NCBI GenBank assembly: GCA_020343615.1
Contig: CP070803.1
Location: 143,686 to 207,685, forward strand
DNA from: Candidatus Woesearchaeota archaeon
GTDB lineage: Archaea > Nanobdellota > Nanobdellia > UBA10117 > GCA-020343615
DNA: 64,000 bases
Direction of reading: 5' to 3'
Part shown: positions 3,307-61,485 of the stretch, piece by piece
Layout: the number at the start of each line of letters is the position of its first letter
Numbering within the stretch: the first letter of the stretch is position 1
Notes under the pieces: generated by a model
The model's input: the letters and a program-made list of their open reading frames with translations, nothing else
The model's database searches: none
Told to the model about the DNA's origin: nothing
Program-made: the position numbers and the translations under genes

Positions 3307-3326
3307 AATAAAGTAATTTTCTGAAA

Positions 3327-29205: not shown

Positions 29206-29208
29206 TTT

Positions 29209-29547: not shown

Positions 29548-29591
29548 ATTAAATAGGAATAATTTACCCTTTATAAAGCTTTAAGTCCGAC

Positions 29592-30278
29592 CTAATCCGA
29601 TTTGAGTAAAATAACTGGTAATTTATGAGAAGTGTTCTTTAATCTATCCCACCCCCTCTGTTCAAAGCTACTCTTACTTTTTAAGTTATAATTGCTCTTT
29701 ACTTTCTTTGCAAAAGACTTTCCTTTGTCTTTGTCTGAGAAATAAATATCAACACCATTTGTGACTGGTTTAATTCTTATAACATATTTTTTGGGTAAAA
29801 GTTTCAGAATTTTTTTTATTAACTTATCATCTGTTCTTAGTTGAATTTTTGAATTCCATTGTTTGCTTTTCTTAATATTGCATGTGCTACACATCTTTTC
29901 TCTCACTATTATAGAAATTCTTCTAGATTCTGTAAAAACTTCATCGTTTATTGCTAACCACAATCTTACTTTCCCTTCTTCACCAGTTTCTACTACTTTG
30001 ATATTGTCTAAGATAACTTCCTTAGGTAATTTTATTCTCTTCGTTAATTCTTCTGTTAAATAAAGCTTCCAAGAATCTGTTTTAATCCATTTACCTTTAG
30101 ACAAAATCGAATTGCATTTTTTACAGATGGTCAATACTATCTCTTTTGGAACTCTAATTTGATTGTCTTGATAGTAACATTTAGCGCATAATCCGTTGTT
30201 AAGTTCTTTGGCTTCATGACCGCATTTTGGACAGAATTTATTTTTTAAACTCATTCGTAAATATTTTAAATTTAACAT
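29592..30278 (-). CDS. NMD3-family protein (ribosomal export/assembly factor homolog)
   Basis: N-terminal CPKCG...CAKC...CKKCN... zinc clusters followed by the Nmd3-type OB region. The true start may be the Met at MSLKNKFCPKCG. Confidence 0.6.
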   Translation of the reverse strand: MLNLKYLRMSLKNKFCPKCGHEAKELNNGLCAKCYYQDNQIRVPKEIVLTICKKCNSILSKGKWIKTDSWKLYLTEELTKRIKLPKEVILDNIKVVETGEEGKVRLWLAINDEVFTESRRISIIVREKMCSTCNIKKSKQWNSKIQLRTDDKLIKKILKLLPKKYVIRIKPVTNGVDIYFSDKDKGKSFAKKVKSNYNLKSKSSFEQRGWDRLKNTSHKLPVILLKSD

Positions 30279-30292
30279 ACAATATAAAAATT

Positions 30293-30673
30293 ATGGCTGA
30301 ATGTGAAATCTGTGGTAAATCTTCTTATGATTTAAGTTATGTTAAAGTAGAGGGTACTCTATTCAAGGTTTGCTTAAACTGTGCTTCTTTAGGTAATAAA
30401 GTTGAGGGTTATGTAGATAAACCTATGAAGAAGATTCCTCCGTCTATTAAAAGACGTGAAGATAATCAAGTAATTGTTAGTGATTACGGGCGTAGAGTTA
30501 GTGTTGGTAGACAGCATGCCGGGTTGAAACAAGAAGACTTAGCTAAAAAAATAAATGAAAGATTATCTCACATTAAAGCAGTTGAATCTGGAAAAAGAAC
30601 CCCTAGTTTAAAGTTGGCTAGAAAATTAGAAAATGCTCTTAATATTGTATTAATAGAAAGAGGGGAAATATAA
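30293..30673 (+). CDS. mbf1: Multiprotein bridging factor 1 (MBF1): zinc ribbon plus XRE-type HTH
   Basis: MAECEICGK...CLNC zinc ribbon, then an HTH (RQHAGLKQEDLAKKINERLSHIKAVESGKRTPSLKLARKLENAL). Start placed at ATG 30293, not the longer listed ORF. Confidence 0.7.
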   Translation: MAECEICGKSSYDLSYVKVEGTLFKVCLNCASLGNKVEGYVDKPMKKIPPSIKRREDNQVIVSDYGRRVSVGRQHAGLKQEDLAKKINERLSHIKAVESGKRTPSLKLARKLENALNIVLIERGEI

Positions 30674-30684
30674 AAAATAAAAAT

Positions 30685-32769
30685 TTATTCTTCCTCGTCT
30701 TCAAGTAGTTCTCTTATTTTTTTTACTAATTTTTTCTTCTTTTTCTTTTTCTTTTTTTCTTCTTTAACAGGTTCTTCCTCTGCCTCCTCCTCTTCTTCCT
30801 CTTCTTCCGGTTCTTCTTTTTTCTTAATATTCGATTTTTTTGGTGTTTCTTTAGTTCCTTGCCAAAGTAAGATTAATATCAATATAACTATTATCGCTCC
30901 AACTATGTATTTCCAATTATCTTTTATTATAGAGATTCCTGTAACTCCTGAAAATGCTCCAGTTATTTTGTCGCCTGTTGAAGACAGTGCTTCGGTTATT
31001 CTAGATAAAATACCTTCTTCCTCGTCTTCAGTTACTTCTGATTCATTTACTTCTTCTTCAACTTCTTCCATGTCTTCCTCTTCTCCGACGCTCTCAATGT
31101 CAACTCCTTTCCCGACCTCCACAACATTAACTTCAATCGCCTCTGATGCTTGAATTGTTCCTTCTTCTAATCTCGCTGAAACAGATAATGTGTAATGGTC
31201 TCTTTCGGCTTCTTCTGGAATTGCAATGTATAAATACGCTACATCTGTTTCTCCAGCCTCAACAGTTACTGTTGATGGATTTAGCTGAGCAAAGGAAGTA
31301 CCTGCTCCTGAAATTTCTAAAGAATAGGTTGCTTCTTCTTTACCTTTATTTTCTATATTTATTGGAATTAATGCTCCTTCACCTATAGCAATATCTATTT
31401 CATCTAATTCTGCTGATAATGCTATAGCGAAGCAAATATCTTTACTAATTACTTCGAGTTCTAGAGTATCTTCACCAGAAGTTTCACTTGGTTCTTGTGA
31501 TTTGGCTATTACTTTAATATTATACGTATCGACTGTTTCTGGGGCATCTACTATAAGACTTAGTGTTTCGCTTTCCCCTTCGTCAAGTTCTACAAAGTTT
31601 TTATCTAATCTAGCCCACTCCGGGCCTTCGATAAAGATACTATACGGTTCTTTGAATTTTCCTAAATTTGTTAAAGATACTTCATAAGTTTTTGAACTTT
31701 GAGCACAAATCGTGTCTTGATTAGCAGCTAATTTTAATTCTGTAATAAAACAAGGTCTTATTGTTATGTCTATTTCCTTCTTCTGAGATACCTTTCCAGT
31801 TTCACTTTCAGCGTTTATCTCTATACTAAAGTCTCCAGTTTCATAGTAATCTGGAAAAATTGTTAAATTTACTACTTCTTCGTCTCCTTCTGCTATGAAT
31901 ACTTCAGTATCATCTAAAGTAGCCCAATCAGGTCCTGTAACACTCAGATCGTACGTGTTATCTATGATGCCTTCGTTCTTTATTAAAACAGGTATTTTTG
32001 CATGTGTATGATCACAAAAAGAATAAACATCTTTAGGGGAATCTATAGAGTATTCATAACATTCTTCTATAACTATTTGTATGTCTTTACTACTAACAGC
32101 ATCGCTATCTTCTGAAGATGCTGTTACAGTTAATCCGTATTCTCCTAAATCATCTGGTGGTGCTCTTATTCCGAGTGTAACTTCTTCTTCTTCATTTTTA
32201 TCTAGTCTTAGGGTATCTTGAGATAGAACTGCCCAATCTTCAGCTACTCCACTTAGAGATAAGGTGAAATCTTCAGTATATTCTCCAATATTCTTAATTG
32301 TAAGTTCATAACTTACTAACTCTCCTGGACATGCTGTCTTAGAATCATCATCAACTGTAATTTCTACACCATGACATGGTTCAATTATTATGTCGTAAGA
32401 AAGTTCTTCTTCTCCTGCGCTTCCACCATCTATTTTTATATTCAAATCATAAGCTCCTATTAATGCTTTGCTAGATGGTGTGATCCATACATAAACGCTT
32501 TTAGTTTTTCCAGGTTCTAAAGAGAATCCTGTTGGTGCAGCTACAGCCCATTTTTGAGCGGTGCCGGATAAAGAAACAGTAAAACTTATTGTCTCATCTC
32601 CTTTATTTTCAATAGGTATATTTATTGTTTCTGTGTGTGTTGGACATAATCTTTTTTCTCCACCCATTGCTCCTACTTCGAAGTCTTCTAATGAAAAAGC
32701 AATTGGTGTAATTAATAATAGAACTCCTATAATAAAAAATGGAATTATTTTATTCTTCATTATTATCAA
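30685..32769 (-). CDS. Secreted/cell-surface protein with repeated Ig-like domains, a C-terminal TM anchor and a poly-E/poly-K cytoplasmic tail
   Basis: N-terminal signal/anchor (IIPFFIIGVLLLITPIAFS). About five repeated units of roughly 100 aa (e.g. VSLSGTAQKWAV.., TLSLSGVAEDWAVL.., VTGPDWATL.., FIEGPEWARL..). C-terminal TM (IVGAIIVILILILLW) followed by EEPEEEEEEEEAEEEP...KKKKKKKKK. Confidence 0.6.
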   Translation of the reverse strand: MIIMKNKIIPFFIIGVLLLITPIAFSLEDFEVGAMGGEKRLCPTHTETINIPIENKGDETISFTVSLSGTAQKWAVAAPTGFSLEPGKTKSVYVWITPSSKALIGAYDLNIKIDGGSAGEEELSYDIIIEPCHGVEITVDDDSKTACPGELVSYELTIKNIGEYTEDFTLSLSGVAEDWAVLSQDTLRLDKNEEEEVTLGIRAPPDDLGEYGLTVTASSEDSDAVSSKDIQIVIEECYEYSIDSPKDVYSFCDHTHAKIPVLIKNEGIIDNTYDLSVTGPDWATLDDTEVFIAEGDEEVVNLTIFPDYYETGDFSIEINAESETGKVSQKKEIDITIRPCFITELKLAANQDTICAQSSKTYEVSLTNLGKFKEPYSIFIEGPEWARLDKNFVELDEGESETLSLIVDAPETVDTYNIKVIAKSQEPSETSGEDTLELEVISKDICFAIALSAELDEIDIAIGEGALIPINIENKGKEEATYSLEISGAGTSFAQLNPSTVTVEAGETDVAYLYIAIPEEAERDHYTLSVSARLEEGTIQASEAIEVNVVEVGKGVDIESVGEEEDMEEVEEEVNESEVTEDEEEGILSRITEALSSTGDKITGAFSGVTGISIIKDNWKYIVGAIIVILILILLWQGTKETPKKSNIKKKEEPEEEEEEEEAEEEPVKEEKKKKKKKKKLVKKIRELLEDEEE

Positions 32770-49281: not shown

Positions 49282-50277
49282 ATGAAAGCCCTAGCTTTAT
49301 TTTCAGGAGGTTTGGACTCTATTCTAGCGATTAAACTATTACAAGAACAAGGTGTTGGGGTAATAGCTTATCACTTTACTTCTCCAGTTTTAACTGAGGA
49401 TCTTAAAGACATTAAAAAAACAGCTAAGGAATTAGGAGTTAAGCTAATTATTGAAGAAGCTGACTCAGATTACTTCAGAATGTTAAGAAAGCCTAAACAT
49501 GGCTACGGAAGTGCTATTAACCCTTGTATTGACTGTAGGATATTTGTATTTAAAAAAGCAAAGAAGGTAGCTAAAAAAGAAGGTGCTAAATTCATTGCTA
49601 CAGGAGAAGTTCTTGGAGAAAGGCCCATGACACAGGTTAAACGGTCTTTAGAGCTGATTGAAGAGGAAGCTGGCTTAAAAAACAAGCTATTAAGGCCCTT
49701 ATCTGCGAAATTGCTTCTAGAAACTGAAGCTGAGAGTAAGAAGTGGGTCAATAGAAAAGGATTTTTAGATATAGAAGGTAGAAATAGAAAAAAGCAGTTA
49801 GAATTAGCCAAAAAATACAAATTAAAGGACTATCCTACGCCTGCTGGTGGCTGTTTACTAACTGATAAAGATTTTGCACCTCGAGTAGCTGATTTATTTA
49901 AGAATAATAAAAGAATTACTAATAAGGATTTTCTTTTGATAAAATTCGGGAGACATTTTAGGTATAAAAACAGTAAAATCATTGTAGGTCGTGATGAAAA
50001 AGATAATGAACAATTAATAAATCTTAAGAATAAAACAGACTTTATCCTTGAAGTCTCTAATTATGGGAGCCCAATAACTATTTTACAGGGAAAAGATATA
50101 GAATTCGCAGCTAAATTAACCGCAAGATATTCTGATGCTAAAGGAAAGAAAATAGAGGTTAAATACGGAAAACAGAAACCTATTAAAAGCTTATTTGTCT
50201 CTCCTGCAACACAAGAACAGGTAGATAAATACATGATACGCCGAGATAGCTCAGTTGGTAGAGCGCCAGTCTCATAA
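49282..50277 (+). CDS. PP-loop ATPase of the MnmA/ThiI tRNA-thiolation family
   Basis: SGGLDS PP-loop. NPCIDCRIFVFKK resembles the MnmA/ThiI catalytic-Cys motif NPxxxCNxxIKF. A second Cys lies in PAGGCLLTD. The 3' end overlaps the tRNA-Met gene by 38 nt. Confidence 0.55.
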   Translation: MKALALFSGGLDSILAIKLLQEQGVGVIAYHFTSPVLTEDLKDIKKTAKELGVKLIIEEADSDYFRMLRKPKHGYGSAINPCIDCRIFVFKKAKKVAKKEGAKFIATGEVLGERPMTQVKRSLELIEEEAGLKNKLLRPLSAKLLLETEAESKKWVNRKGFLDIEGRNRKKQLELAKKYKLKDYPTPAGGCLLTDKDFAPRVADLFKNNKRITNKDFLLIKFGRHFRYKNSKIIVGRDEKDNEQLINLKNKTDFILEVSNYGSPITILQGKDIEFAAKLTARYSDAKGKKIEVKYGKQKPIKSLFVSPATQEQVDKYMIRRDSSVGRAPVS

Positions 50278-50312
50278 GCTGGATGTCGCGGGTTCAAATC
50301 CCGCTCTCGGCA
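50240..50312 (+). tRNA. tRNA-Met(CAT), elongator type
   Basis: Hand-folded as acceptor GCCGAGA/TCTCGGC (G1:C72, so not an initiator), anticodon arm CCAGT-CTCATAA-GCTGG and T-arm GCGGG-TTCAAAT-CCCGC. Confidence 0.85.
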
Positions 50313-50690: not shown

Positions 50691-51878
50691 ATGCCTGAAA
50701 GTATTCTAAAGAAAGCTGGTGGATTTGTAAAAGACTCTGTTCTACTTTTAAGACCTTTACGTAAAAAAGAAAAATGGGATATTGGGAGATTGGATACATA
50801 TCTTTCTCCGGAAGAATATAGGAAAGTAAAGGGGGCATTAAAACAAGGTAAGGTTAAAATTGAACTATTAAAGTTGGGTTTTTCATTTTTAATCTCTGGA
50901 AAAGATGTTTTGCCTCGCTTAGTTTCTGAAGTTGAGTTTTTTCAAAAAATAAATAACAAGATAGAAAAAAAGTACTATGATAAATTATTTGAAGAATTTT
51001 CTCCACGAGCTTATGATGTTCTATTTCATTATTTGGCTTCAGATGTCATGTATCTCGCTGATCTAAAAAGAGCAGCAATACTTCAGTTATTCACAGAATT
51101 TCCTCTTCATGTTCTCATTATTGGTGAGTCAGATAGTGGAAAGTCTAAAATTCTGAATTCTGTCCGAACATTAGCGCCAAAATCAACTTATGGTATTGGA
51201 TCTTCAATATCTAGCAGCGGTCTAACACTATCTGTACAGGGGAAGAATGTGAAACCTGGTATTCTTCCTAGAGCTGATCAGGGTGTTTGCTGTATTTCTG
51301 AATTAAATCTAATTAAGAAGAATGAACTTTCGCAGCTTGTTTCTGTCATGGATAAAGGTTACATTAAATATGATAAAGGCGGTGCGAGTATTAAAAAAGA
51401 TGCTAGAACTAAAATACTAGCTACAGCTGAGACTAAAAAAGGTGATTTTAAATCATATTCTCTTTCACAGATAAAGAAACAGATACCGTTTAACTCTTCG
51501 TTTTTATCTAAATTTCATTTAATATTCATTACTAAAAAGCCTAGTAAAAATGAATTTAGAATTATTGCTGATACAATCATAGATGAGTCTGTTAAAAAGG
51601 ATATAAGTAAAGATGAAATTGAATTTATTAAACGATATATTGACTATAGTTCTGGAATTAGAGTAAAACTTCCTAAGAAATTAGCTAAACAAGTAGATGA
51701 ATTCGTTGTTGGTTTAAAAGATATGGAAAAAAAGTTACCTTATAACATTTCCTCTAAAACAGTTGAAGGGATTGTTTCCTTAATCAAGGCATCTGCAAGG
51801 TCTGAATTTAGAGGAGAAGTAGAAAATAAGGACTTAGAAAGAGTTTTTTCAATAGTCCGGAGCGCACTTCAAATATAA
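50691..51878 (+). CDS. Short, degenerate MCM-like AAA+ protein (395 aa) lacking the MCM N-terminal domain
   Basis: Walker A IIGESDSGKSKIL. The segment GVCCISELNLIKKNELSQLVSVMDKGYIKYDKGGASIKKDARTKILATAE aligns with the MCM Walker B/sensor/arginine-finger block (GVCCIDEFDKM...AIHEAMEQQTISIAKAGI...SARCSVLAAAN), but the Walker B Asp is replaced by Ser. Confidence 0.5.
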   Translation: MPESILKKAGGFVKDSVLLLRPLRKKEKWDIGRLDTYLSPEEYRKVKGALKQGKVKIELLKLGFSFLISGKDVLPRLVSEVEFFQKINNKIEKKYYDKLFEEFSPRAYDVLFHYLASDVMYLADLKRAAILQLFTEFPLHVLIIGESDSGKSKILNSVRTLAPKSTYGIGSSISSSGLTLSVQGKNVKPGILPRADQGVCCISELNLIKKNELSQLVSVMDKGYIKYDKGGASIKKDARTKILATAETKKGDFKSYSLSQIKKQIPFNSSFLSKFHLIFITKKPSKNEFRIIADTIIDESVKKDISKDEIEFIKRYIDYSSGIRVKLPKKLAKQVDEFVVGLKDMEKKLPYNISSKTVEGIVSLIKASARSEFRGEVENKDLERVFSIVRSALQI

Positions 51879-51913
51879 AAGTTTATAAATGCAAAAAATA
51901 CATTAATTTTTAA

Positions 51914-52659
51914 GCCTCGGTAGCTCAGTCGGCAAGAGCGACGGAGGGTGAAAGTTGATATGATACAACTTAATGAACGCGTTGCAGAAGAAACTGGTAT
52001 TCACATTGGTGATGGTAGCATGAGCATATATAACGGTATACCTTGTTATACTGTTGCATGTAATGCTAACAAAGAAAGAGAATACGTTGAAAAATATATA
52101 GCTCCATTAATAAAAGAAGTATATGGAATAAAACCGAAGTTAAGAATGTGGTCAGAAGGAGCATATGGATTTAGGATTGTTTCTAGAGAAGTGATAGAAT
52201 TTAAAAATAAAGAATTGGGTCTTCCATTAGGACCTAAAAAAGAAATAGAAATACCTTTTAAAATAATAAAAAATATGAACTTAGCTAAAAAATGTATACG
52301 TGGACTCTTTGATACAGATGGTTGTGTCTATATTGAAGAAAAGAAAACAGGTCCTTACCCTAGAATAGAATTACACCTAAGTTCAAAAAAAGTAGTAAAG
52401 CAGGTTAGTGAAATATTAAAGGATCTAGGATTAACTTGTTCAATTTGGGAACATAAATATCCTAATAAAAAGAATTGGTCAAACACGTATACAGTGTGTA
52501 CTCGAGGAACAAAAAATTTAAACATTTGGATGAAACAAATAGGATTCAAAAATCCTAAAAACATAAAAAAAGTATTAGCTTTCACCGGTCGAATCTTGTA
52601 TGCCGAAAGGAGTTTGGCCAAGTAAACCGTAGGTCGTGGGTTCGATTCCCACCCGGGGC
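51914..52659 (+). tRNA. tRNA gene (Thr-like D-arm and U73; isotype unresolved) interrupted by an intron of roughly 0.67 kb that encodes a LAGLIDADG endonuclease
   Basis: 5' exon GCCTCGG-TA-GCTC-AGTCGGCAA-GAGC-G-ACGGA.. and 3' exon ..GTAA-ACCGT-AGGTC-GTGGG-TTCGATT-CCCAC-CCGGGGC-T pair into a 7-bp acceptor stem (GCCTCGG/CCGGGGC) with a canonical T-arm. An oligo-T tract follows. I could not define the exact splice junctions or anticodon by hand. Confidence 0.55.
51948..52625 (+). CDS. LAGLIDADG homing endonuclease (double-motif, monomeric type) encoded inside the tRNA intron
   Basis: Two LAGLIDADG motifs: GIHIGDGSMSI and IRGLFDTDGCVYI. The ORF runs from the 5' splice region into the 3' exon, as is typical of intron-encoded HEs. 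Confidence 0.75.
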   Translation: MKVDMIQLNERVAEETGIHIGDGSMSIYNGIPCYTVACNANKEREYVEKYIAPLIKEVYGIKPKLRMWSEGAYGFRIVSREVIEFKNKELGLPLGPKKEIEIPFKIIKNMNLAKKCIRGLFDTDGCVYIEEKKTGPYPRIELHLSSKKVVKQVSEILKDLGLTCSIWEHKYPNKKNWSNTYTVCTRGTKNLNIWMKQIGFKNPKNIKKVLAFTGRILYAERSLAK

Positions 52660-52749
52660 TTTTTATAGTATTTTAAAAATAAAGGATATGTTCCTAAATC
52701 TAAAGAAATAGAAAGATTTTTTAAGGCTACTAAAATCTGAAGATGTAGT

Positions 52750-52877
52750 GGGCCGGTGGTCTAGCTGGTTAACTCTTCCAGAACTTTTGTGGGAGAGGCC
52801 AAATGACGCAGCCCTTACATGTTCTTAAAAAGGGCTAAGATAGGCTGAGGTCGGGAGTTCGAATCTCCCCTGGCCCA
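52750..52877 (+). tRNA. tRNA-Val(TAC) with two introns: a 22-nt canonical 37/38 intron and an intron of about 33 nt in the D-loop
   Basis: Hand-folded as acceptor GGGCCGG/CTGGCCC, anticodon stem CAGCC/GGCTG with loop CTTACA-[TGTTCTTAAAAAGGGCTAAGAT]-A, and T-arm GGGAG-TTCGAAT-CTCCC. The D-arm GTCT...TGAC-G closes only if an internal insert of about 33 nt is removed. Confidence 0.65.
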
Positions 52878-52934
52878 CTTGTATACTGCTGTAAAGAAAT
52901 TTTTATTATAATACTATCACTATTTGATAGATAT

Positions 52935-53245: not shown

Positions 53246-56200
53246 CTAATCGCTTAAAGGAAGATAATCCGTGTTAGCAGAACAGTTGGAAATGATTCGG
53301 GTGTGCATTAAATCTGTGTTATTGTACCATGAAATTGACACATCTGAATCTGAAGTTGAATCTACTAGTCTTCCTTTCTTTACTGCTAAGTTTCTTCCAT
53401 TAGGATATCCTAACCAAGTAGAACCTGCATTTGCTAATTTTACACATGACCAACTACCTGCAGAATTATAACAGTATCTTAAATCATCATTTGTAGCATC
53501 ATAATGAGATATATATACAACATCATTGGAGTCTATTGCTATGCTTGTATCCCATCCAACGTCACCAGTGGTTTCTACATTCTCGCAGGTCCAAGAACCT
53601 CCAGAGTTGTTGCAGTATGATAGTGAACCATTATTCGAAGATACGTGGACAACATCATTGGAGTCTATTGCTATGCTAGTATGTTTACCACCATCTCCTA
53701 TTTGCTTGCAAGTCCAGGTTCCTCCAGAGTTGTTGCAGTATCTTAAATCATCATTACCAGCATCAGTATGAGAGATATGAACTACATTATTGGAATCTAT
53801 TGCTATGCTTGAACAGTCTCCGACCATACCTCCTAGGTCTACATTCTCGCAGGTCCAAGAACCTCCAGAGTTGTTGCAGTATCCTAACGAATAAACTACA
53901 GTAGCATTTTTGTGAGATATATGGACAACATCATTGGAGTCTATTGCTATGCTTGAAAATTCTCCGACAACACCATTAGTTGCTACATTATCGCAAGTCC
54001 AGGTTCCTCCAGAGTTGTTGCAGTATCCTAGATTACCTCCGGTTTCATTATAATATGATATATGAACAACATTAGTAGAGTCTATGGCTATGCTTGAATC
54101 GTATCCGACATTACCAGTAGTTTTTAAGTTCTTACATTCCCAATTTCCGTATGTTCCGTTACAGTACCCTAAATCATCATTTGTATCATTAAAGTAAGAT
54201 ATATGAATCATTCCGTTATAGTCTATTGCTATGCTTGAATACCTTCCTGTATCATTTTTTGACTCTACTGTTTCTGTACTACTTCCTAGCTGACACGCTC
54301 TGTCATTATACACATCATAAGCCTCATCACAGAAGCCATCATTATCATCATCGGTACAGTCATAATAATATCCGTCTCCAGAACCATTAATCCAAACATT
54401 ACCTCCTATATTGGTTCCAGAACCATAAATCCTATTTCCTGTTTTGTTTGTTGTATTAAAGTAATTAGGAGGGTTTGGGGGAGTTCCAGTAAAGCGTACA
54501 TTATCATAAGTTCCAGAATTATTTAGTAGACAATTGTATATTTGATTGTATTCAGGATAATCCGAACCACTTGGATCGAAATAGATTCCAGCCAAAGAAT
54601 TGCCTTTTATTGTTGAATTAGCTATAATATTATTGTCCGAATTGGAAGATAACCTAACTCCATAACTATTTGAATTGGTAATACTCTCTGAAATAATATT
54701 AGAATTTGAGTTATATAAAAAAATTCCATGTTGTGAATTTGAATTTGCAGTTACGTTTATGAAGTTATTGGAGTCTGAAGAATACATTTGAATTCCATAA
54801 CTATTTGAATTTGCGGTTATATTTGTGAAGTTATTGGAGTCTGAAGAAGACATATAAATCCCTACATATGATGAATATGAAGTTATATTAATAAATGTAT
54901 TGGAATTAGAATACATTAACATTATGTACTCATTATTTGAGTTATTTATATTTTCAAAATGTGCTCCATCTGTTTGAGCTATAATAATACCATTATTATC
55001 TATACTATCAGAACCTCTTATTGTTATATTATTTAAGTAAGAGTTACTTGCATTACATAAAATTATATGACTTATATTACCCTCCCAGTTTTGGATATTC
55101 ACAGTATCTTTATAGTACTTAATTGGTCTGTTCCCTGAACCTGTTATGTTTTCTATATGATTTTCACAATGATTATCTGTAGTAGTAGAAACGTATAAAT
55201 CCAGTTCGTTTTCTAAGAGTTTTGAATTAGTAATAGAACTACTATATGAATTTCGCAGATAAAATCCATATTGATTTGAATTTGCAGTTATATTTGTGAT
55301 ATTGTTGTAATCTGACATTATATAGACTCCATGTTGTGAATTTGAATTTGCAGTTACGTTTATGAAGTTACTGGAATCTGAATAAATAAAATAAATTCCT
55401 CGCCAATTTGAATTTGTGATTGTATCTTTAATAGTATTTTTGTCAGATGCACTAGTACTATAAATTCCATTAAAAAAGTCTGTGATTTTACAATTTAATA
55501 CAGTATTATTATCAGAACCTCCATTTGAATTATTTAACCAAATTCCATAATCTGTTGTTCCTGAATCATCTCCAGTAATATTATGCCCTTGACAGTCAAA
55601 TGTTACATCATCTGTTCCGTTAAAGTCTATACATCTTCCAGTTGTGGAGATATTATCAACCAAATAAATAGTATCTCCTGAACTTGCTTGACCAATCTCT
55701 GCGGTGCAGTTATCACAACTATAACAAAGAGCTCCTGCTAATTCAATAGTACAGGTAGCAGAGCAGCCATCTCCCCCTGTAGTACCTCCATCGTCACATT
55801 CTTCTCCACATTCTACTACATCATTTCCACAGAATTGGTCTAAACTGCAATCTCCATTACATCCTGGGTAAGGATCACAATCTACATTATTACCATCATC
55901 ACATTGCTCATCCCCTTCAGGATTATTATCACCACATATAGTAAGAAATACTACTTCAGTATCATATTCTCCTGTAGCTGATGTTGCTGATGAAAAATGA
56001 ATAGTATAGAAATATGTGGTTGACGCCTTTATATTACAAATAAAAGGATTTATTCGTATATATAAGGATACTGTTCCTCTAGCACTTAAATATTTTTCAG
56101 AGATATTCGCTTCAAAGGCTCCACCTGGTGAGAGATATTCGCTTTGACAAACTACTTCTCCACTTGGTTTATATATCTCTAACAACATATTTGACTCATT

Positions 56201-56440
56201 TAGTTTCATTCTTCTACTTCCTTTGTTTTTTATGTCTACTCTTAAGACATTATTTTTATACGACTCTGATAGAATTACAGGATTATATGATGTTAATGTT
56301 GTTGTTATGTCTCTTATTGCTTCCACTTCTCTTTCAGATGGTTGTATAGTCTTAACATAAAACAGAATTGATATAGATATTAATACTGTGAATATTGCTA
56401 GGATGATAATAGAGAGTATAGGGGTTAATCCTTTTTTCAT
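53246..56440 (-). CDS. Giant (1064 aa) membrane-anchored surface protein: Cys-rich module, right-handed parallel beta-helix repeats, and seven C-terminal propeller-like repeats of about 42 aa
   Basis: N-terminal anchor (LTPILSIIILAIFTVLISISILF); a Cys-rich DDGNNVDCDPYPGCNGDC..CGEECDDGG module; PbH1-like repeats (NITANSNSQHGVYI / NITANSNQYGFYL / NITANSNSYGIQM...); then 7x [SSIAIDSNDVVHISHxDAxNDDLRYCNNSGG(S/T)W(T/S)C] repeats. Confidence 0.7.
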   Translation of the reverse strand: MKKGLTPILSIIILAIFTVLISISILFYVKTIQPSEREVEAIRDITTTLTSYNPVILSESYKNNVLRVDIKNKGSRRMKLNESNMLLEIYKPSGEVVCQSEYLSPGGAFEANISEKYLSARGTVSLYIRINPFICNIKASTTYFYTIHFSSATSATGEYDTEVVFLTICGDNNPEGDEQCDDGNNVDCDPYPGCNGDCSLDQFCGNDVVECGEECDDGGTTGGDGCSATCTIELAGALCYSCDNCTAEIGQASSGDTIYLVDNISTTGRCIDFNGTDDVTFDCQGHNITGDDSGTTDYGIWLNNSNGGSDNNTVLNCKITDFFNGIYSTSASDKNTIKDTITNSNWRGIYFIYSDSSNFINVTANSNSQHGVYIMSDYNNITNITANSNQYGFYLRNSYSSSITNSKLLENELDLYVSTTTDNHCENHIENITGSGNRPIKYYKDTVNIQNWEGNISHIILCNASNSYLNNITIRGSDSIDNNGIIIAQTDGAHFENINNSNNEYIMLMYSNSNTFINITSYSSYVGIYMSSSDSNNFTNITANSNSYGIQMYSSDSNNFINVTANSNSQHGIFLYNSNSNIISESITNSNSYGVRLSSNSDNNIIANSTIKGNSLAGIYFDPSGSDYPEYNQIYNCLLNNSGTYDNVRFTGTPPNPPNYFNTTNKTGNRIYGSGTNIGGNVWINGSGDGYYYDCTDDDNDGFCDEAYDVYNDRACQLGSSTETVESKNDTGRYSSIAIDYNGMIHISYFNDTNDDLGYCNGTYGNWECKNLKTTGNVGYDSSIAIDSTNVVHISYYNETGGNLGYCNNSGGTWTCDNVATNGVVGEFSSIAIDSNDVVHISHKNATVVYSLGYCNNSGGSWTCENVDLGGMVGDCSSIAIDSNNVVHISHTDAGNDDLRYCNNSGGTWTCKQIGDGGKHTSIAIDSNDVVHVSSNNGSLSYCNNSGGSWTCENVETTGDVGWDTSIAIDSNDVVYISHYDATNDDLRYCYNSAGSWSCVKLANAGSTWLGYPNGRNLAVKKGRLVDSTSDSDVSISWYNNTDLMHTRIISNCSANTDYLPLSD

Positions 56441-57258: not shown

Positions 57259-60200
57259 TTGATGTATCGTAGAGCTAACTTCAGTGTATTTATACTTGTA
57301 TCTATATTTATCTTTATACTTTTACTTCCATCTTTTTTTATACTCTTAAAATTTGATGGTTTTACATTATATCAAAGATTTCAAGAATATGAACCATGGA
57401 TTAGTATTACGGGTGTTACTGTTGCTGAAGATGTTATGATTATTAAAAAAAATTTTGAAGAGCCATTCTTATTTCCTATAACTTTAGAAAATCAGGAATT
57501 TATGGTGGTAGAACTGACAAACTGTATCTCTGTTGGTGAAGTCGGTGAACCAAGCCTTCCAGTATGTCCTGTTCATATTTTAATTTCGCAAAGTAAGGTA
57601 ATATCTAATGTTGATGTGGATTATTTTGATGAAACTAGGATAGATTATGACTTATCTAATAAACCAATAGTTCCTGCCCAAAAAGAAATTCCTATTAGTT
57701 GTGAAGATGTGCCTGACTTCGCCTTGAATCAGGAAATTTATAATTCGGATCAACCCGTCCCAGAACTAATTTATGAAAACAAGGGTACTGGGCTTATGGT
57801 TGGTTTTAACATCTTGACGATAAATTTGAATCCAGTTAGATACATACCTAAAAATGGAGAATTATATTATTATCCTAAAATGGAGATAAGTGTTACTTTA
57901 GCAGACGGGTTTGGTGCTGTTAGTGAACAAGAGAACAAATTTTTAAGATTAAAAGAAAGTGATGTTGATCGTGTTAGTTCTTTGATAGAAAACCCTTCCA
58001 CTATTTCTTCTTATTCTGTGCCTGTTGAATTTGGAACATTGGATGCTCCTCTGAATGGAAGTTGTACTTGTGATCCTACTAAAACATATGAATATGTGAT
58101 AATAACTGATGAGTCTCTATTAAATTCTAGTGGCTACAATTACAGTTGGTATGATTTAATAAATCACCGGAGAAACTATAGTGGTTTAAATGGAACAATA
58201 GTAACTGTACAACAAATTGAGAATTGTTCTGATTATCAAAACAATACTTATCCTTTCAATGATTCTGCTCATAGTATACGTGAATTCATTAAAGATGCTT
58301 ATCAAAATTGGGGTACTGAATACGTTGTATTAGGTGGGAAGTGGAGAGATGACACCCCTGCTGAAAAAATGGTTCAATATCGTTTATTCACAGATATTTA
58401 TGAAACGGGTACTTATGATACTATGCCTTGTGACTTGTACTACAGCAATCTTGACGGTGATTGGTGGTATTCTAATTATAGTGTATGGGGTGGCGGTAAG
58501 AACAGTCCAGTTAATGATAAGTTCTCAGAGATTTATGTAGGTCGTATAACTGCTTACGATACTGAACATGTTTCAAATGCTGTACGTAAAATAATTTGGT
58601 ATGATATTAACAATCATAGTGAGGAATGGTTAGTAACTGTTACATTTGCTGGTGCTAATCTAGGTTGGGCTGTCACTTCAAAACAATACATGGAAGAATT
58701 ACGTATAGGTAACGGATCGTATTCTGAAAATATTGGTTTTGAAGAATGGAACTCTAAACATTCATATTATCCATTTTATACGTTAGAAAATAGATATTAT
58801 CATGCTGATGATACGTGGAGTGATTTCTTAGAGTCTATAGAAAATGATACTAGTTCTATTGTAAATCATATCGGACATTCGAGTTGGAATACTCCTTTTA
58901 GTCTTACTAATTGGCAATTTAGAAATAATACTTTGCCCTTTTTTGGTTACTCACAAGGTTGTCTGGCGGGTAGATTTTCTAGTGGTTTCTCTGGTTGTGA
59001 ACAAACGATGTGCAGACATCCTGAAAAACACGCCTTTGCTGTAGTTCTGAACACAGGATACGGTTATGGTAGTTTTAGTTCTACTCACGGCGCGAGTCAG
59101 CAACTGCATAAGATATTTTGGGCTTATTTTTTTAATGAAGCAGAAAATAATTTAAGTGAGTGGGAATTAGGAAGAGCTCAGTCCTATTCTAAAGATGAAT
59201 TCTCTGCATATATTGATTCTAATCATGCAAAATGTTATGTGTGGTATAGTTCACATTTATTTGGCGATCCTGCACAAAAGCTAGAAATTGCTAGTGTAAT
59301 AAAATCGAATGGTGAATCTTGTTCTTACGAATATGAATGCCTGTCTGGATACTGTGAAGATAGAGTTTGTTGTTCATCTTCATGCGGTGTTTGTCAAGCA
59401 TGTAATATAAATGGTAGTAAAGGTAATTGTTCTAATTACACACAAGGTTCTGACCCAGATAATGAGTGCTCTACAGCTGAGTGTGGTATCGGATACTGTA
59501 ACGGTTTTGGTACTTGTGAAGTATATAGTGATGGTCTAAGACATAATTGTAGTAGTTGTTATTATTGTACCGACTTGGATGAGAGTTGTGATTTAGTACC
59601 TGATGGACAAGATCCTAACAATAACTGCGCTGGAGGAAATGGCACCTCAAATGGTTGTGCGGGAGATTACTGCGACGGTTCTGGCTCCTGTCAAATTATT
59701 AGTTCTGGGGAAGGTAACTGCCCTATTTGTACATTATGTCTAGATAATGATACTGAATGTGAATATTACTCTAATAACACCCAAGATAATGTGGGTAATT
59801 TAACTTGTTTTGGTATTTGTAAGAAATGTGATGGTCTAGGTCAGTGTATCAACCAAACCGCTGGAGAGGATATATTTGACCAATGTGATGCTAATCTAGA
59901 ATGCCATATTGGTATCTGTAATGGTCTTGGAGAATGTGATGTCTATTCTAATGGTGAAAAAGGCTCTTGTGGACCTTGTAAGTATTGTAATGATAGTGAC
60001 TCTAATTGTGAATATGTTCCTTCTGGGCAAGACTTATTTAGTGAGTGTGTTGGTTTGCAGTGTGATGGAGACGCTATAACTCCATATTATTGGGGTTGGG
60101 ACTCATTAACATGTTACTATAGTTCAAATATCTTTTCTAGAGATCACTATTGTGACGGTTCTGGCTCTTGTTATGCTGCTGAAGATTTATGTCCTTCACA

Positions 60201-61485
60201 AGGAAAGGATGGCTCTACGAATATTACTTGTAATTGTGCTGAAGCACTAACTGGTTGTAATGGAACTGTTGTTGGAAGCTGTCTAAATTGTGCTCCTCTG
60301 AATAATTCCGCCCCAACAGCCCCTATCCTTTTGTATCCTGCAGATGAAACTAATAATACTAATAATTCTGTAGATTTTGATTGGGATGATTCTATAGATA
60401 TAGATGGGGATAATATCTCCTATTATTTAGCAATAAATTCGTCGGTAAACTCTACTCAAATTACTTATAGTGTTATGGAATCAAGTTATTCTTCATATTC
60501 TACTATTGATAACGTAACATATTATTGGAGAGTAAAAGCTAGTGATGGTTTAGATAACAGTTCTTGGTCATCTACTTATAAATTTATAGAAATAATTGAA
60601 GTAGAAGAAGAACCTGAAGAGGAAGAAGATCAGACTCCTAGCGGAGGCAGCGGCTCTTCAGGAGGAGGTGGAGGTGGTAGTCCCTCTCCTATTCTCAGTA
60701 GTGCTTCAACAATAACCCCGCCCTCTATTAATTACGACTTATCTGAAACAAATGAAGAAGAGATTAAAGAAGTTGTTAAGTCTAAGCTTAGTGAAATAAG
60801 CAGCAACACTAAAGAAGTTTACAAAGATGTTTCAGTTGATGTGTCTGTTAATCATCCTAGCTCTGAAAGTACCTCTCTTGATTTTAGTTTTAAGTATGGT
60901 AAAGGTACGCCTCTAAAAAAAGTGATGATATTCATTGAAGTTCCTAAATCCTTTGCTGAATCTGCAGAAGATATAACTTTTGAGTCTAGTGTCCCTTATA
61001 GTAAAATGGAAGTTGTTGAAAATGATCCTGTTTATTATTTCTACTATGAAAATCTGGAATCTGAGAATATATCTTATTCTTTCCATAATAATGAATATAG
61101 TATAGGAAGCAAGGTCATTGAAGATGTAAGTCAACCATGGGTTTTCTTTGAAACTGAAGAAGAAGTTGTTCCAGAATGTGGTAATAATGTAATAGAAAAA
61201 GGGGAAGAATGTGATAGTGTTAGTGGACTAATTGAAGGTTATAGATGCTCTGCTGAATGCAAACTAGTTCCTATCCTTCAATGCATTGATGATGGGGATT
61301 GTACTCAAGAAGAAACAGAATTAGGTGAGTGTAATGACTGTTTAATTAGTACTCCTGCACCTACTAGTGCTTATGTTATATTATATCAAAAGTGGTTTGT
61401 TGTATTACTTATTATCTTTATAATATGTACTCTCATATTAGGACTTAAACTAGAAATTAAGAATAAGAAAAAAAGGAAGAAATAG
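57259..61485 (+). CDS. Giant (1408 aa) surface protein: N-terminal anchor, putative clan-CD (gingipain/C25-like) cysteine peptidase domain, Cys-rich EGF-like repeats, FN3 domain, Gly/Ser linker, and a C-terminal TM anchor with a basic tail
   Basis: N-terminal TM (FSVFILVSIFIFILLLPSFFILL). Candidate His/Cys dyad: VNHIGHSSW ... FFGYSQGCLAG, about 27 aa apart. Repeated CxxC..C..NC..GxGxCE modules. FN3-like APTAPILLYPAD...YYWRVKASDG. SGGSGSSGGGGGGSPSP linker. C-terminal WFVVLLIIFIICTLILGL-KLEIKNKKKRKK. Confidence 0.7.
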   Translation: MMYRRANFSVFILVSIFIFILLLPSFFILLKFDGFTLYQRFQEYEPWISITGVTVAEDVMIIKKNFEEPFLFPITLENQEFMVVELTNCISVGEVGEPSLPVCPVHILISQSKVISNVDVDYFDETRIDYDLSNKPIVPAQKEIPISCEDVPDFALNQEIYNSDQPVPELIYENKGTGLMVGFNILTINLNPVRYIPKNGELYYYPKMEISVTLADGFGAVSEQENKFLRLKESDVDRVSSLIENPSTISSYSVPVEFGTLDAPLNGSCTCDPTKTYEYVIITDESLLNSSGYNYSWYDLINHRRNYSGLNGTIVTVQQIENCSDYQNNTYPFNDSAHSIREFIKDAYQNWGTEYVVLGGKWRDDTPAEKMVQYRLFTDIYETGTYDTMPCDLYYSNLDGDWWYSNYSVWGGGKNSPVNDKFSEIYVGRITAYDTEHVSNAVRKIIWYDINNHSEEWLVTVTFAGANLGWAVTSKQYMEELRIGNGSYSENIGFEEWNSKHSYYPFYTLENRYYHADDTWSDFLESIENDTSSIVNHIGHSSWNTPFSLTNWQFRNNTLPFFGYSQGCLAGRFSSGFSGCEQTMCRHPEKHAFAVVLNTGYGYGSFSSTHGASQQLHKIFWAYFFNEAENNLSEWELGRAQSYSKDEFSAYIDSNHAKCYVWYSSHLFGDPAQKLEIASVIKSNGESCSYEYECLSGYCEDRVCCSSSCGVCQACNINGSKGNCSNYTQGSDPDNECSTAECGIGYCNGFGTCEVYSDGLRHNCSSCYYCTDLDESCDLVPDGQDPNNNCAGGNGTSNGCAGDYCDGSGSCQIISSGEGNCPICTLCLDNDTECEYYSNNTQDNVGNLTCFGICKKCDGLGQCINQTAGEDIFDQCDANLECHIGICNGLGECDVYSNGEKGSCGPCKYCNDSDSNCEYVPSGQDLFSECVGLQCDGDAITPYYWGWDSLTCYYSSNIFSRDHYCDGSGSCYAAEDLCPSQGKDGSTNITCNCAEALTGCNGTVVGSCLNCAPLNNSAPTAPILLYPADETNNTNNSVDFDWDDSIDIDGDNISYYLAINSSVNSTQITYSVMESSYSSYSTIDNVTYYWRVKASDGLDNSSWSSTYKFIEIIEVEEEPEEEEDQTPSGGSGSSGGGGGGSPSPILSSASTITPPSINYDLSETNEEEIKEVVKSKLSEISSNTKEVYKDVSVDVSVNHPSSESTSLDFSFKYGKGTPLKKVMIFIEVPKSFAESAEDITFESSVPYSKMEVVENDPVYYFYYENLESENISYSFHNNEYSIGSKVIEDVSQPWVFFETEEEVVPECGNNVIEKGEECDSVSGLIEGYRCSAECKLVPILQCIDDGDCTQEETELGECNDCLISTPAPTSAYVILYQKWFVVLLIIFIICTLILGLKLEIKNKKKRKK

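What the first reader, a model, noticed from the sequence alone, without database searches (positions are those of the whole stretch)
50691..51878. Truncated, degenerate MCM-like AAA+ protein
The protein has a Walker A (GESDSGKSK) and a block that aligns to the MCM Walker B/sensor/arginine-finger region (GVCCISELNLIKKNELSQLVSVMDKGYI...ARTKILATAE). However it lacks the MCM N-terminal zinc/OB domain, and the Walker B Asp is replaced (ISEL instead of IDEF). A catalytically compromised, N-terminally truncated MCM paralog could be a regulator of the replicative helicase or a remnant of a mobile-element replication module. It sits between a tRNA-Met gene and the intron-bearing tRNA.
Basis: inference. 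Interest (0 to 1): 0.55.

Follow-up and report, generated by a model that had tools for sequence, protein, structure and literature searches.

The report
ATPase-dead short MCM of Woesearchaeota
This gene encodes a conserved, selection-maintained relative of the archaeal replicative helicase MCM with its own small N-terminal domain and a decayed ATP site, one member of a widespread and apparently undescribed family of 'short MCMs' in Woesearchaeota-type DPANN archaea.

Summary
ORF 50691-51878 (+, 395 aa) is an MCM-clade AAA+ protein (Pfam MCM 1.7e-29, MCM_lid 6.8e-8; the Foldseek top 50 are all MCM). It has no MCM N/OB/Zn domain. Walker B is D->S, sensor 1 N->E, arginine finger R->K and sensor 2 R->K.

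It is not a truncated remnant. It belongs to a family of about 100 clusters (50% identity), found in at least 130 GTDB species of Woesearchaeota/Nanoarchaeota. All members are about 350-440 aa and share a family-specific ~80-aa N-domain with no detectable relative.

About half of the family has fully intact ATPase motifs. The rest are degenerate, with at least 6 inferred losses.

The window gene sits at an orthologous chromosomal locus (MetRS ... tRNA-Met | gene | tRNA-Thr, tRNA-Val). This locus is shared with intact orthologs at 42% identity. dN/dS is 0.127, the same as a housekeeping neighbour. No relatives occur in viral contigs.

The best reading is a vertically inherited pseudo-ATPase with a structural or regulatory role that does not need ATP hydrolysis.

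I could not show a canonical MCM in the same genome, so 'accessory paralog' remains an inference. The actual function is unknown. Other subclades link the gene to arvABC and to HerA/Mre11.

The parts
50691..51878 (+). Short-MCM gene (395 aa; identical to UCD04236.1 / JSW73_01185, Candidatus Woesearchaeota archaeon)
   Evidence: ORF; identical protein P0001; Pfam MCM + MCM_lid; AF2 model pLDDT 87.3, pTM 0.84
50730..50930 (+). Family-specific N-terminal domain (aa ~14-80; helix-helix-strand-strand; conserved KDxxLLxRPLxKKEK ... KQGK ... SFLISGK)
   Evidence: Alignment A1. An N-domain HMM hits 107 of 180 collected MCM-like proteins and none of the canonical MCMs. Models. No significant fold match. 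hhalign against canonical MCM gives probability <1%. dN/dS for codons 1-100 is 0.08.
50934..51032 (+). Long linker helix (aa 82-114) leading into the AAA+ core
   Evidence: DSSP of the AF2 models; the SsoMCM alignment starts at aa 81
51003..51584 (+). MCM-type AAA+ P-loop core (aa 105-298)
   Evidence: Pfam PF00493, E 1.7e-29; Foldseek pdb top 50 all MCM chains, E ~1e-22
51123..51146 (+). Walker A, GESDSGKS (Lys and Ser kept; canonical GDPGxxKS)
51291..51308 (+). Walker B position, CISELN (Asp->Ser, Glu kept; intact relatives have CIDELN)
51420..51434 (+). Sensor 1 position, ATAET (Asn->Glu; intact relatives have ATANP)
51507..51518 (+). Arginine-finger position, SKFH (Arg->Lys; intact relatives have SRFH, canonical MCM has SRFD)
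51621..51866 (+). MCM lid domain (aa 311-392). Sensor 2 position SSKTV at 51750-51764 (Arg->Lys). The C-terminal KASAR...R...DLERVF is the most conserved stretch of the family.
   Evidence: Pfam PF17855; invariant columns; dN/dS 0.06
50240..50312 (+). tRNA-Met(CAT), a conserved upstream neighbour of the short MCM
   Evidence: same arrangement in L001, L007, L014
51913..52661 (+). Conserved downstream tRNA (tRNA-Thr by synteny and arm similarity), here interrupted by a 675-nt intron carrying LAGLIDADG ORF 51948-52625
   Evidence: ARAGORN intron mode; alignment to the L007/L014 tRNA-Thr; Pfam LAGLIDADG_3 at 1.2e-12
52750..52878 (+). tRNA-Val(TAC) with two small introns (32 nt and 22 nt); second conserved downstream neighbour
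   Evidence: alignment to the L007/L014 tRNA-Val

Best explanation
SHOWN. The ORF is the full-length product of a vertically inherited chromosomal gene. It belongs to a family of 'short MCMs' found across Woesearchaeota/Nanoarchaeota. The architecture is a family-specific ~80-aa N-domain, a long linker helix, an MCM AAA+ core (with a shortened helix-2 insert and a pre-sensor-1 hairpin) and an MCM lid. There is no OB/Zn N-domain and no C-terminal winged helix. The family is a deep branch: 32-33% identical to any canonical MCM, whereas canonical MCMs share about 56%. Its inferred ancestral state is an intact ATPase. In the lineage of this window the ATP site has decayed: Walker B D->S, sensor 1 N->E, arginine finger R->K, sensor 2 R->K. 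Sister species additionally lose the Walker A Lys or the Walker B Glu. Meanwhile the gene stays under purifying selection, strongest on the N-domain and lid. INFERRED. The protein is a pseudo-ATPase. It no longer translocates or unwinds. It most likely keeps an MCM-like oligomeric or partner-binding scaffold role, using the conserved basic N-domain and the lid, in whatever DNA-related process its intact orthologs serve. A separate canonical MCM, expected elsewhere in the 919-kb genome, would do the replicative unwinding.
For: MCM identity. Family size and architecture: 34 close homologs of 351-552 aa. About 100 representatives of 350-440 aa match the full profile, while 640-730-aa MCMs match only profile positions ~108-397. 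The N-domain HMM is exclusive to the family, and there is a clean bipartition from 53 canonical MCMs. At least 130 GTDB species loci carry it, nearly all labelled Woesearchaeota, Nanoarchaeia or Nanoarchaeota, with one copy per locus. Motif states: (50 fully intact and 58 not fully intact among 108 family sequences). Fitch parsimony gives an intact root and at least 6 losses. Orthology and vertical descent: MetRS lies a few kb upstream in the window, L007, L001-6 and L010. The order tRNA-Met | gene | tRNA-Thr (+ tRNA-Val) holds in the window, L007, L014 and L001. The window, L007 and L014 are collinear, sharing the ThiI/NFACT gene just upstream; EF-1alpha/EF-2 lie downstream in the window and L007, and ribosomal protein S10 in L007 and L014. 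Selection: dN/dS is 0.127 against 0.131 for the neighbouring gene; by region it is 0.08 for the N-domain, 0.19 for the AAA core and 0.06 for the lid. Not viral or defence-related. Deep divergence.
Against: No biochemical data exist. Lys-for-Arg at the finger and at sensor 2, with Walker A GKS and the Walker B Glu retained, could leave residual nucleotide binding or slow hydrolysis in this particular protein. I could not demonstrate a canonical MCM in this genome. None lies in the 64-kb window. The only supporting evidence is circumstantial. Canonical 670-690-aa MCMs occur in many Woesearchaeota/Nanoarchaeota MAGs. One of them co-occurs by sample with an intact short MCM. Oligomerisation and nucleic-acid binding are assumed from homology. 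The tree is a rough NJ tree prone to long-branch attraction, so the number of independent losses is approximate. Some degenerate clades could be old paralogs rather than degenerated orthologs.
Confidence: 0.6

Rival explanations
1. Non-catalytic partner of the canonical MCM. The dead short MCM inserts into or caps the replicative MCM ring, or titrates its partners such as GINS or Cdc6, and so regulates loading or activity.
For: It keeps the MCM AAA+ and lid fold, which forms the inter-subunit interfaces. Pseudo-ATPase subunits in mixed AAA+ rings are well established (general knowledge: ORC, RFC, mei-MCM; PMC6553819 was found). The gene is under purifying selection.
Against: The family is only 29-33% identical to canonical MCMs, with no closer affinity to DPANN MCMs. 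It lacks the N-terminal domain that drives MCM hexamer and double-hexamer formation. No gene linkage to canonical MCM, GINS or Cdc6 was seen in about 95 loci. Half of the family are intact ATPases, which suggests an autonomous motor as the ancestral function.
Confidence: 0.15
2. It is still a working nucleotide switch. With GKS, the Walker B Glu and Lys in place of both trans/cis arginines, it binds ATP and hydrolyses slowly, acting like an Orc1/Cdc6-type timer rather than a dead scaffold.
For: The Walker A Lys/Ser and the Walker B Glu are retained in the window protein. The R->K replacements conserve charge.
Against: Within the same clade the remaining residues are not conserved. P0006 has GSGAS (no Lys), P0005 has GKE, and P0007 and P0009 have S-K in place of D-E. 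The AAA core is the least constrained region (dN/dS 0.19 against 0.06-0.08). So nucleotide chemistry is not what selection preserves.
Confidence: 0.15
3. Decaying remnant of an integrated virus or plasmid replication module that landed next to tRNA genes.
For: The gene is flanked by tRNA genes, which are classic integration targets. A homing-endonuclease ORF lies next door. Mobile-element MCMs without the normal N-terminus are known (B. cereus prophage MCM, PMC2715239). The family is highly diverged from cellular MCMs, so an ancient mobile-element origin of the whole family cannot be excluded.
Against: The same tRNA-Met | gene | tRNA-Thr locus and the same housekeeping surroundings occur in orthologs down to 42% identity. 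No integrase, att repeats or other element genes are present. GC content is unremarkable. dN/dS is 0.127. IMG/VR holds only full-length viral MCMs at 27-35% identity without the N-domain. The LAGLIDADG ORF belongs to a tRNA intron, not to the gene.
Confidence: 0.04
4. It is the only MCM of this reduced genome and still acts as the replicative helicase.
For: No canonical MCM lies in the window. The conserved TBP-MCM-OB segment is missing upstream of the NMD3-KH-TopoVIB-TopoVIA block, where other Woesearchaeota have it.
Against: Four of the five catalytic signature residues tabulated are replaced and are variable within the clade. Only 7% of the 919-kb contig was examined. Mcm is reported as retained in all DPANN phyla (PMC8407392). 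Canonical MCMs are common in Woesearchaeota-labelled MAGs.
Confidence: 0.02

Closest known systems
Canonical archaeal MCM (e.g. Saccharolobus solfataricus MCM, PDB 3F9V/6MII)
   Same: AAA+ core with Walker A/B, helix-2 insert, pre-sensor-1 hairpin (YDKGG Lys kept), SRF-type finger strand and MCM lid. Sequence hit at E 2.5e-21. Foldseek at E ~1e-22, with TM about 0.65-0.69 normalised to the query.
   Different: It has no N-terminal A/OB/Zn domain and no C-terminal winged helix. Instead it has an unrelated ~80-aa N-domain. The helix-2 insert is about 6 residues shorter. Four catalytic residues are replaced. Identity to canonical MCM is only ~29-30% for the window clade, and 32-33% for intact short MCMs. 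It scores 111.6 bits against the 940-bit NCBIfam MCM cutoff.
Intact short MCMs of Woesearchaeota/Nanoarchaeota (e.g. P0012 = MBS3064934.1, annotated only as 'ATP-binding protein')
   Same: Same length, same N-domain, same locus (tRNA-Met upstream, tRNA-Thr downstream, MetRS a few kb upstream), 42% identity.
   Different: They keep GDPGTGKT / IDELN / ATANP / SRFH / TPR and are presumably active ATPases. Some subclades are linked to arvA-arvB-arvC. The window protein has lost these motifs and has no arv genes nearby.
Catalytically degenerate MCM paralogs of eukaryotes (mei-MCM MEI-218; MCMDC2)
   Same: An MCM-type AAA+ domain with degenerate ATPase motifs, retained by selection for a non-helicase role (my own knowledge; mei-MCM paper PMC6553819 listed).
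   Different: Unrelated lineage with different N-terminal regions. Those proteins act with MCM8-like REC in meiotic recombination. No such partner is known here.
Bacillus cereus prophage MCM-like helicase (BcMCM)
   Same: Related to MCM only in the AAA+ region, with the typical N-terminus replaced (PMC2715239).
   Different: BcMCM is prophage-encoded, carries a primase-like N-terminus and is an active helicase. The window gene is chromosomal, syntenic, has a small non-primase N-domain and a dead ATP site.
Methanopyrus kandleri MCM2 (inactive archaeal MCM homolog, PDB 3F8T; from my own knowledge, not tested here)
   Same: An archaeal MCM paralog reported as lacking helicase activity and lacking part of the N-terminal domain.
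   Different: MkaMCM2 still has an MCM-type N-terminal domain (minus the Zn subdomain). It did not appear among the 60 PDB hits shown of 70 at E <= 1. No specific relationship was tested.

Membership tests
MCM family (Pfam PF00493 MCM P-loop + PF17855 MCM lid) | MCM AAA+ domain profile above the curated threshold | tested here: met
   103 bits against cutoff 23.3, E 1.7e-29, aa 105-298
MCM family (Pfam PF00493 MCM P-loop + PF17855 MCM lid) | MCM-type lid domain | tested here: met
   33.3 bits against cutoff 27.4, aa 311-392
MCM family (Pfam PF00493 MCM P-loop + PF17855 MCM lid) | Fold of the AAA+/lid module matches solved MCM structures better than other AAA+ clades | tested here: met
   Foldseek pdb: top 50 all MCM chains, E 1.7e-22 to 1.4e-20, rmsd ~3 A over ~330 columns for the best-fitting chains
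Replicative MCM helicase (NCBIfam NF040949 minchrom_main_MCM) | N-terminal MCM_N / OB-fold / Zn-finger domain | tested here: not met
   No PF14551/PF17207 hit. NF040949 matches only profile positions 325-593, at 111.6 bits against cutoff 940. hhalign of the N-domain against canonical MCM gives probability <1%.
Replicative MCM helicase (NCBIfam NF040949 minchrom_main_MCM) | Complete catalytic set: Walker A Lys, Walker B Asp-Glu, sensor 1 Asn, arginine finger, sensor 2 Arg | tested here: not met
   Only the Walker A Lys and the Walker B Glu remain. D->S, N->E, R->K, R->K.
Replicative MCM helicase (NCBIfam NF040949 minchrom_main_MCM) | ATP-dependent 3'-5' DNA unwinding as a hexamer | not testable with these tools
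   Needs biochemistry
Short-MCM family of Woesearchaeota/Nanoarchaeota (defined here) | Family-specific N-domain (KDxxLLxRPLxKKEK ... KQGK ... SFLISGK) directly followed by MCM AAA+ and lid, with total length about 350-440 aa | tested here: met
   Alignment A1. The N-domain HMM hits 107 proteins including this one, and no canonical MCM.
Short-MCM family of Woesearchaeota/Nanoarchaeota (defined here) | Orthologous locus (tRNA-Met upstream, tRNA-Thr downstream, MetRS within ~10 kb) | tested here: met
   Window, L007, L014, L001. This does not hold for all subclades.
   Mg_chelatase scores 21.7 bits over 73 residues only, against MCM at 103 bits. The TIGR chelatase models score 14-27 bits against cutoffs of 467-779. 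The motifs are not intact.
Mobile-element (provirus/plasmid) MCM | Located in an integrated element (integrase, att sites, element genes, variable locus) or present in viral or plasmid sequences | tested here: not met
   Conserved housekeeping synteny. No element genes or flanking repeats. IMG/VR has only full-length viral MCMs without the N-domain. Plasmid collections were not searched.
Known anti-phage defence ATPases (PADLOC) | Significant match to a defence-system protein model | tested here: not met
   Best E 0.0018, 15 bits, generic AAA

The most novel reading that the evidence does not exclude
The short MCMs are a second, DPANN-specific MCM-type ring motor devoted to a non-replicative job. 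The recurrent cluster short-MCM > arvA > arvB > arvC (the vesicle-forming GTPase operon), with HerA/Mre11 upstream, suggests two candidates: loading nucleic acid into ArvA-driven extracellular vesicles for cell-to-cell transfer in these symbionts, or MCM8/9-like support of double-strand-break processing. Under this reading, lineages such as the window's have converted the motor into an ATP-independent scaffold.
Probability: 0.12. Interest if true: 0.8.

Novelty: new variant of a known kind. Interest (0 to 1): 0.5.

Why it matters
MCM is treated as a single-copy, universally conserved replisome marker in Archaea. Here a whole DPANN radiation (at least 130 species-level genomes) carries an additional, deeply divergent MCM lineage. 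This lineage swapped the OB/Zn N-terminal domain for a small novel domain, and roughly half of its members have become pseudo-ATPases while staying under selection.

This matters in three ways. First, annotation pipelines label these proteins 'MCM', 'MoxR-like ATPase' or 'hypothetical', which can inflate or confuse replisome gene counts and marker-gene phylogenies in DPANN. Second, the family offers a natural series of intact and dead orthologs at the same locus, which is useful for studying how AAA+ motors turn into scaffolds. Third, the arvABC and HerA/Mre11 linkage gives testable leads to a function for an MCM-type ring outside replication in organisms that cannot yet be cultured.

Tried and rejected
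**Canonical MCM in the same genome.** I could not show one.
- None of the ORFs of at least 480 aa in the window is an MCM.
- The contig-length 'fingerprint' between the short-MCM and canonical-MCM hit lists gave one match, at 13,992 bp. It turned out to be two different assemblies, so it was a false lead.
- P0334 and P0409 belong to assemblies not known to carry a short MCM.
- P0398 shares three samples with short MCM P0012, which is only circumstantial.
- The JGI scan did not return the long contigs that carry short MCMs.
- The Ga0136651/HyVt-71 idea failed because those proteins cannot be looked up.

**Split-gene idea.** I looked for an N-terminal MCM domain encoded nearby. No MCM_N or OB gene was found in about 95 loci. 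An apparent N-part hit in L058 is noise (i-Evalue 18).

**N-domain identity.**
- Foldseek against PDB gave no significant hit (best E 0.83). The weak hits are mostly winged-helix regulators, so 'winged-helix-like' is only a hint.
- hhalign against canonical MCM was negative.

**Replication origin next to the gene.** No ORB-like repeats were found. The intergenic spacers are tiny. No Orc1/Cdc6 was found among the window ORFs I scanned with Pfam. The 'Oap = origin-associated' name is positional only, and OapA is now ArvA, a vesiculation GTPase.

**arvABC and PIN-like neighbours.** HMMs built from the other loci find none of them in the window or in L001-L015.

**A conserved downstream ~160-aa ORF.** It is homologous only between L001 and L012 (41% identity), has no Pfam hit, and is not present in the window.

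**Defence system or phage family.** PADLOC found nothing. PHROGs matched only a viral MCM helicase.

**Literature.** No description of this family was found.
Full report
**1. What is there**

ORF 50691-51878 (+) encodes 395 aa. It is identical to UCD04236.1, 'hypothetical protein JSW73_01185' of a Candidatus Woesearchaeota archaeon, on a 919,475-bp contig.

- Pfam finds an MCM P-loop domain (E 1.7e-29, aa 105-298) and an MCM lid (E 6.8e-8, aa 311-392). Mg_chelatase reaches only 21.7 bits on a 73-residue stretch.
- NCBIfam's full-length MCM model matches only its positions 325-593, at 111.6 bits against a cutoff of 940.
- The best solved relatives are SsoMCM chains (E 2.5e-21), aligned from aa 81 to MCM residue 270 onward.
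- An AlphaFold2 model built on 27 family sequences is confident (pLDDT 87.3, pTM 0.84). Its 50 best PDB matches are all MCM subunits.

**2. State of the active site**

The SsoMCM alignment and a profile alignment of 180 MCM-like proteins give the following.

| Motif | Window sequence | State |
|---|---|---|
| Walker A | GESDSGKS | Lys and Ser kept |
| Walker B | CISELN | Asp->Ser, Glu kept |
| Pre-sensor-1 hairpin | YDKGG | Lys kept |
| Sensor 1 | ATAET | Asn->Glu |
| Arginine finger | SKFH | Arg->Lys |
| Sensor 2 | SSKTV | Arg->Lys |

The helix-2 insert is about six residues shorter than in SsoMCM. In the window's own clade (P0002-P0007, P0009) the residual residues are not stable. P0006 has GSGAS, P0005 has GKE, and P0007 and P0009 have S-K at Walker B. 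Nucleotide chemistry is therefore not what is being conserved.

**3. It is not a truncation: it belongs to a family**

- A word-indexed search found 34 homologs, almost all 351-445 aa. They come from Woesearchaeota, 'DPANN group' and Nanoarchaeia MAGs, variously annotated as hypothetical, ATP-binding protein, MoxR-like ATPase or MCM.
- All share a conserved N-terminal region: KDxxLLxRPLxKKEK ... KQGK ... SFLISGK.
- An exhaustive profile search of 1.84 billion representatives found about 100 clusters (50% identity) of 350-440 aa that match the whole profile. Canonical 640-730-aa MCMs match only profile positions ~108-397.
- An HMM of the N-domain alone hits 107 of the 180 collected proteins and no canonical MCM. 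In an NJ tree of the AAA+/lid region, a single bipartition separates 53 canonical MCMs from all 94 N-domain-bearing proteins.
The best 80 are nearly all Woesearchaeota, Nanoarchaeia, Nanoarchaeota, Pacearchaeota or Nanobdellota MAGs, each with exactly one such gene in the locus.
- Intact short MCMs are 32-33% identical to canonical MCMs, whether or not those come from DPANN. Canonical MCMs across phyla share about 56%. The family is thus a deep branch and not a recent duplication.
- The N-domain (helix-helix-strand-strand followed by a 33-residue helix) has no significant structural match. The best E is 0.83, and the weak hits are mostly winged-helix regulators. It shows no profile similarity to any part of canonical MCM.

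**4. Intact and dead members**

Of 108 family sequences in the tree, 50 have all five signatures tabulated (Walker A Lys, Walker B Asp-Glu, sensor 1 Asn, arginine finger, sensor 2 Arg), with near-invariant GDPGTGKT / IDELN / ATANP / SRFH / TPR. The other 58 lack at least one of the five, and 49 of them lack three or more. Parsimony on the rough tree infers an intact ancestor and at least six losses. Long-branch attraction makes the number approximate.

**5. Orthology, vertical descent and selection**

- In the window the gene lies between tRNA-Met(CAT) (50240-50312, with a cupin ORF in between) and two interrupted tRNAs.
- In L007 (P0007, 54% identity, degenerate) and L014 (P0002, 83%), the same order is found without introns: tRNA-Met | gene | tRNA-Thr(TGT) | tRNA-Val(TAC). 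In L001 (P0012, 42%, fully intact motifs) the order is tRNA-Met | gene | LAGLIDADG ORF | tRNA-Thr(GGT).
- MetRS lies a few kb upstream in all of these, preceded by Mre11/Rad50 or HerA/NurA. The window, L007 and L014 share the ThiI/NFACT gene just upstream; the tRNA-Gly/Pro/Lys/Ala cluster and EF-1alpha/EF-2 are shared by the window and L007.
- The degenerate gene is therefore the positional ortholog of intact genes, in a housekeeping region, and is not an insertion.
- Against its 83%-identical homolog, dN/dS is 0.127, compared with 0.131 for the adjacent ThiI/NFACT gene. By region it is 0.08 for the N-domain, 0.19 for the AAA core and 0.06 for the lid. This is a maintained gene whose ATPase core is the least constrained part.
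- IMG/VR contains no family member, only full-length viral MCMs at 27-35% identity. PADLOC is negative.

**6. Context in other subclades**

Clustering the neighbours in the 80 GTDB loci shows a recurrent block. It runs Mre11/HerA ... PIN-like < UPF0175-like < | short MCM > small GTPase > OapB (PF09846, 1.5e-18) > OapC (PF09845, 4.3e-25). The GTPase sits at a median of +106 nt on the same strand in 23 loci, spread over five 50%-identity similarity groups.

OapABC were named for lying beside the Haloferax origin. OapA has since been shown to drive extracellular-vesicle formation and was renamed ArvA, with ArvB and ArvC as operon partners. ArvA homologs are reported in DPANN (PMC10927574).

None of these genes is present in the window or in the loci of its closer relatives. 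No origin-like repeats flank the gene. The linkage is a lead for the family's function, not evidence about this gene.

**7. What I could not settle**

The key inference is that a canonical MCM elsewhere in the genome does the unwinding. It rests on indirect evidence.
- The window protein's dead site makes it an implausible helicase.
- Mcm is reported in all DPANN phyla (PMC8407392).
- Canonical 670-690-aa MCMs are abundant in Woesearchaeota/Nanoarchaeota MAGs, in a conserved block: IleRS-TBP-MCM-OB-eIF2beta-DUF424-NMD3-eIF1A-KH-TopoVIB-TopoVIA.
- One canonical MCM (P0398) occurs in the same three datasets as intact short MCM P0012.

The window keeps NMD3-KH-TopoVIB-TopoVIA (30278 to 25942, minus strand), but a 694-aa Ig-like protein sits upstream. 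The canonical gene must therefore lie in the 93% of the contig that I could not read. Several attempts to show same-contig or same-MAG co-occurrence failed, including one false lead.

**8. Verdict**

The gene is a pseudo-ATPase member of a widespread short-MCM family in Woesearchaeota-type archaea. I found no description of this family in the searched literature. The most likely mode of action is an ATP-hydrolysis-independent scaffold or regulatory role that uses the conserved N-domain and lid. This is inferred, not shown.

I rate it as a new variant of a known kind, of moderate interest. The interest lies mainly at the level of the family.

Noticed in passing
window 51913-52661 (+); ORF 51948-52625: A tRNA gene is split by a 675-nt intron that encodes a 225-aa LAGLIDADG homing endonuclease (Pfam LAGLIDADG_3 at 1.2e-12). 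By synteny and by acceptor, D and T arm similarity it is tRNA-Thr, although ARAGORN's intron mode calls it Tyr(GTA). The default ARAGORN run and Rfam both miss the gene. In relative L014 the tRNA-Thr is intact, and a 244-aa LAGLIDADG ORF sits instead beside another tRNA (after tRNA-Lys). In L001 a 209-aa LAGLIDADG ORF abuts tRNA-Thr(GGT). This looks like a homing-endonuclease intron moving among tRNA genes in Woesearchaeota.
   Followed up: partly
window 52750-52878 (+): tRNA-Val(TAC) carries two small introns: 32 nt in the D-arm region and 22 nt just after the anticodon. This was shown by alignment to the intronless L007 and L014 genes. Default ARAGORN does not call it.
   Followed up: partly
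L030:6001-8673 and about 22 other GTDB loci (e.g. L032, L036-L038, L041, L046, L049, L073): A recurrent co-directional cluster of short MCM > ArvA-like GTPase > OapB/ArvB > OapC/ArvC. In many of these loci a divergently transcribed PIN-like (~234 aa) and UPF0175-like (~189 aa) pair lies directly upstream, and HerA/Mre11 lie further upstream.
   Followed up: partly
window 25942-32769 (-): The Woesearchaeota block TBP-MCM-OB-eIF2beta-DUF424-NMD3-eIF1A-KH-TopoVIB-TopoVIA (seen in L105) is broken here. NMD3 (a 228-aa ORF here), KH, TopoVIB and TopoVIA are present. A 694-aa Ig-like/FixG_C-domain ORF occupies the upstream position where the MCM segment lies in other genomes.
   Followed up: partly
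window 49282-50277 (+) versus tRNA-Met 50240-50312: The PP-loop ATPase + NFACT-R_2 ORF (ThiI-like) reads 38 nt into the tRNA-Met gene before reaching a stop. In L007 the homolog ends 1 nt before the tRNA. This is either a true overlap or a shifted stop.
   Followed up: no
window 53246-56440 (-) and 57259-61485 (+): Two very large putative surface proteins. One is a 1064-aa protein with about 141-nt tandem coding repeats and cysteine-rich modules. The other is a 1408-aa C25-type (gingipain-like) peptidase. They are divergently arranged around an 818-nt spacer.
   Followed up: no
window 2704-3929 (+): Two tandem 200-aa calcineurin-like metallophosphoesterase paralogs lie directly after SerRS.
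   Followed up: no
L013:7206-10865; P0358, P0316, P0363: Inteins with LAGLIDADG domains interrupt TopoVIB and canonical MCM genes in several Nanoarchaeota-type genomes. Together with the tRNA introns, this suggests heavy homing-endonuclease traffic in this group.
   Followed up: no
record titles (e.g. L032, L033, L042, L044): Many GTDB representative MAGs that carry the Woesearchaeota-type short MCM are titled 'uncultured Methanosarcinales archaeon' in their records. This is probably a placeholder or a mislabel from the bulk submission.
   Followed up: no
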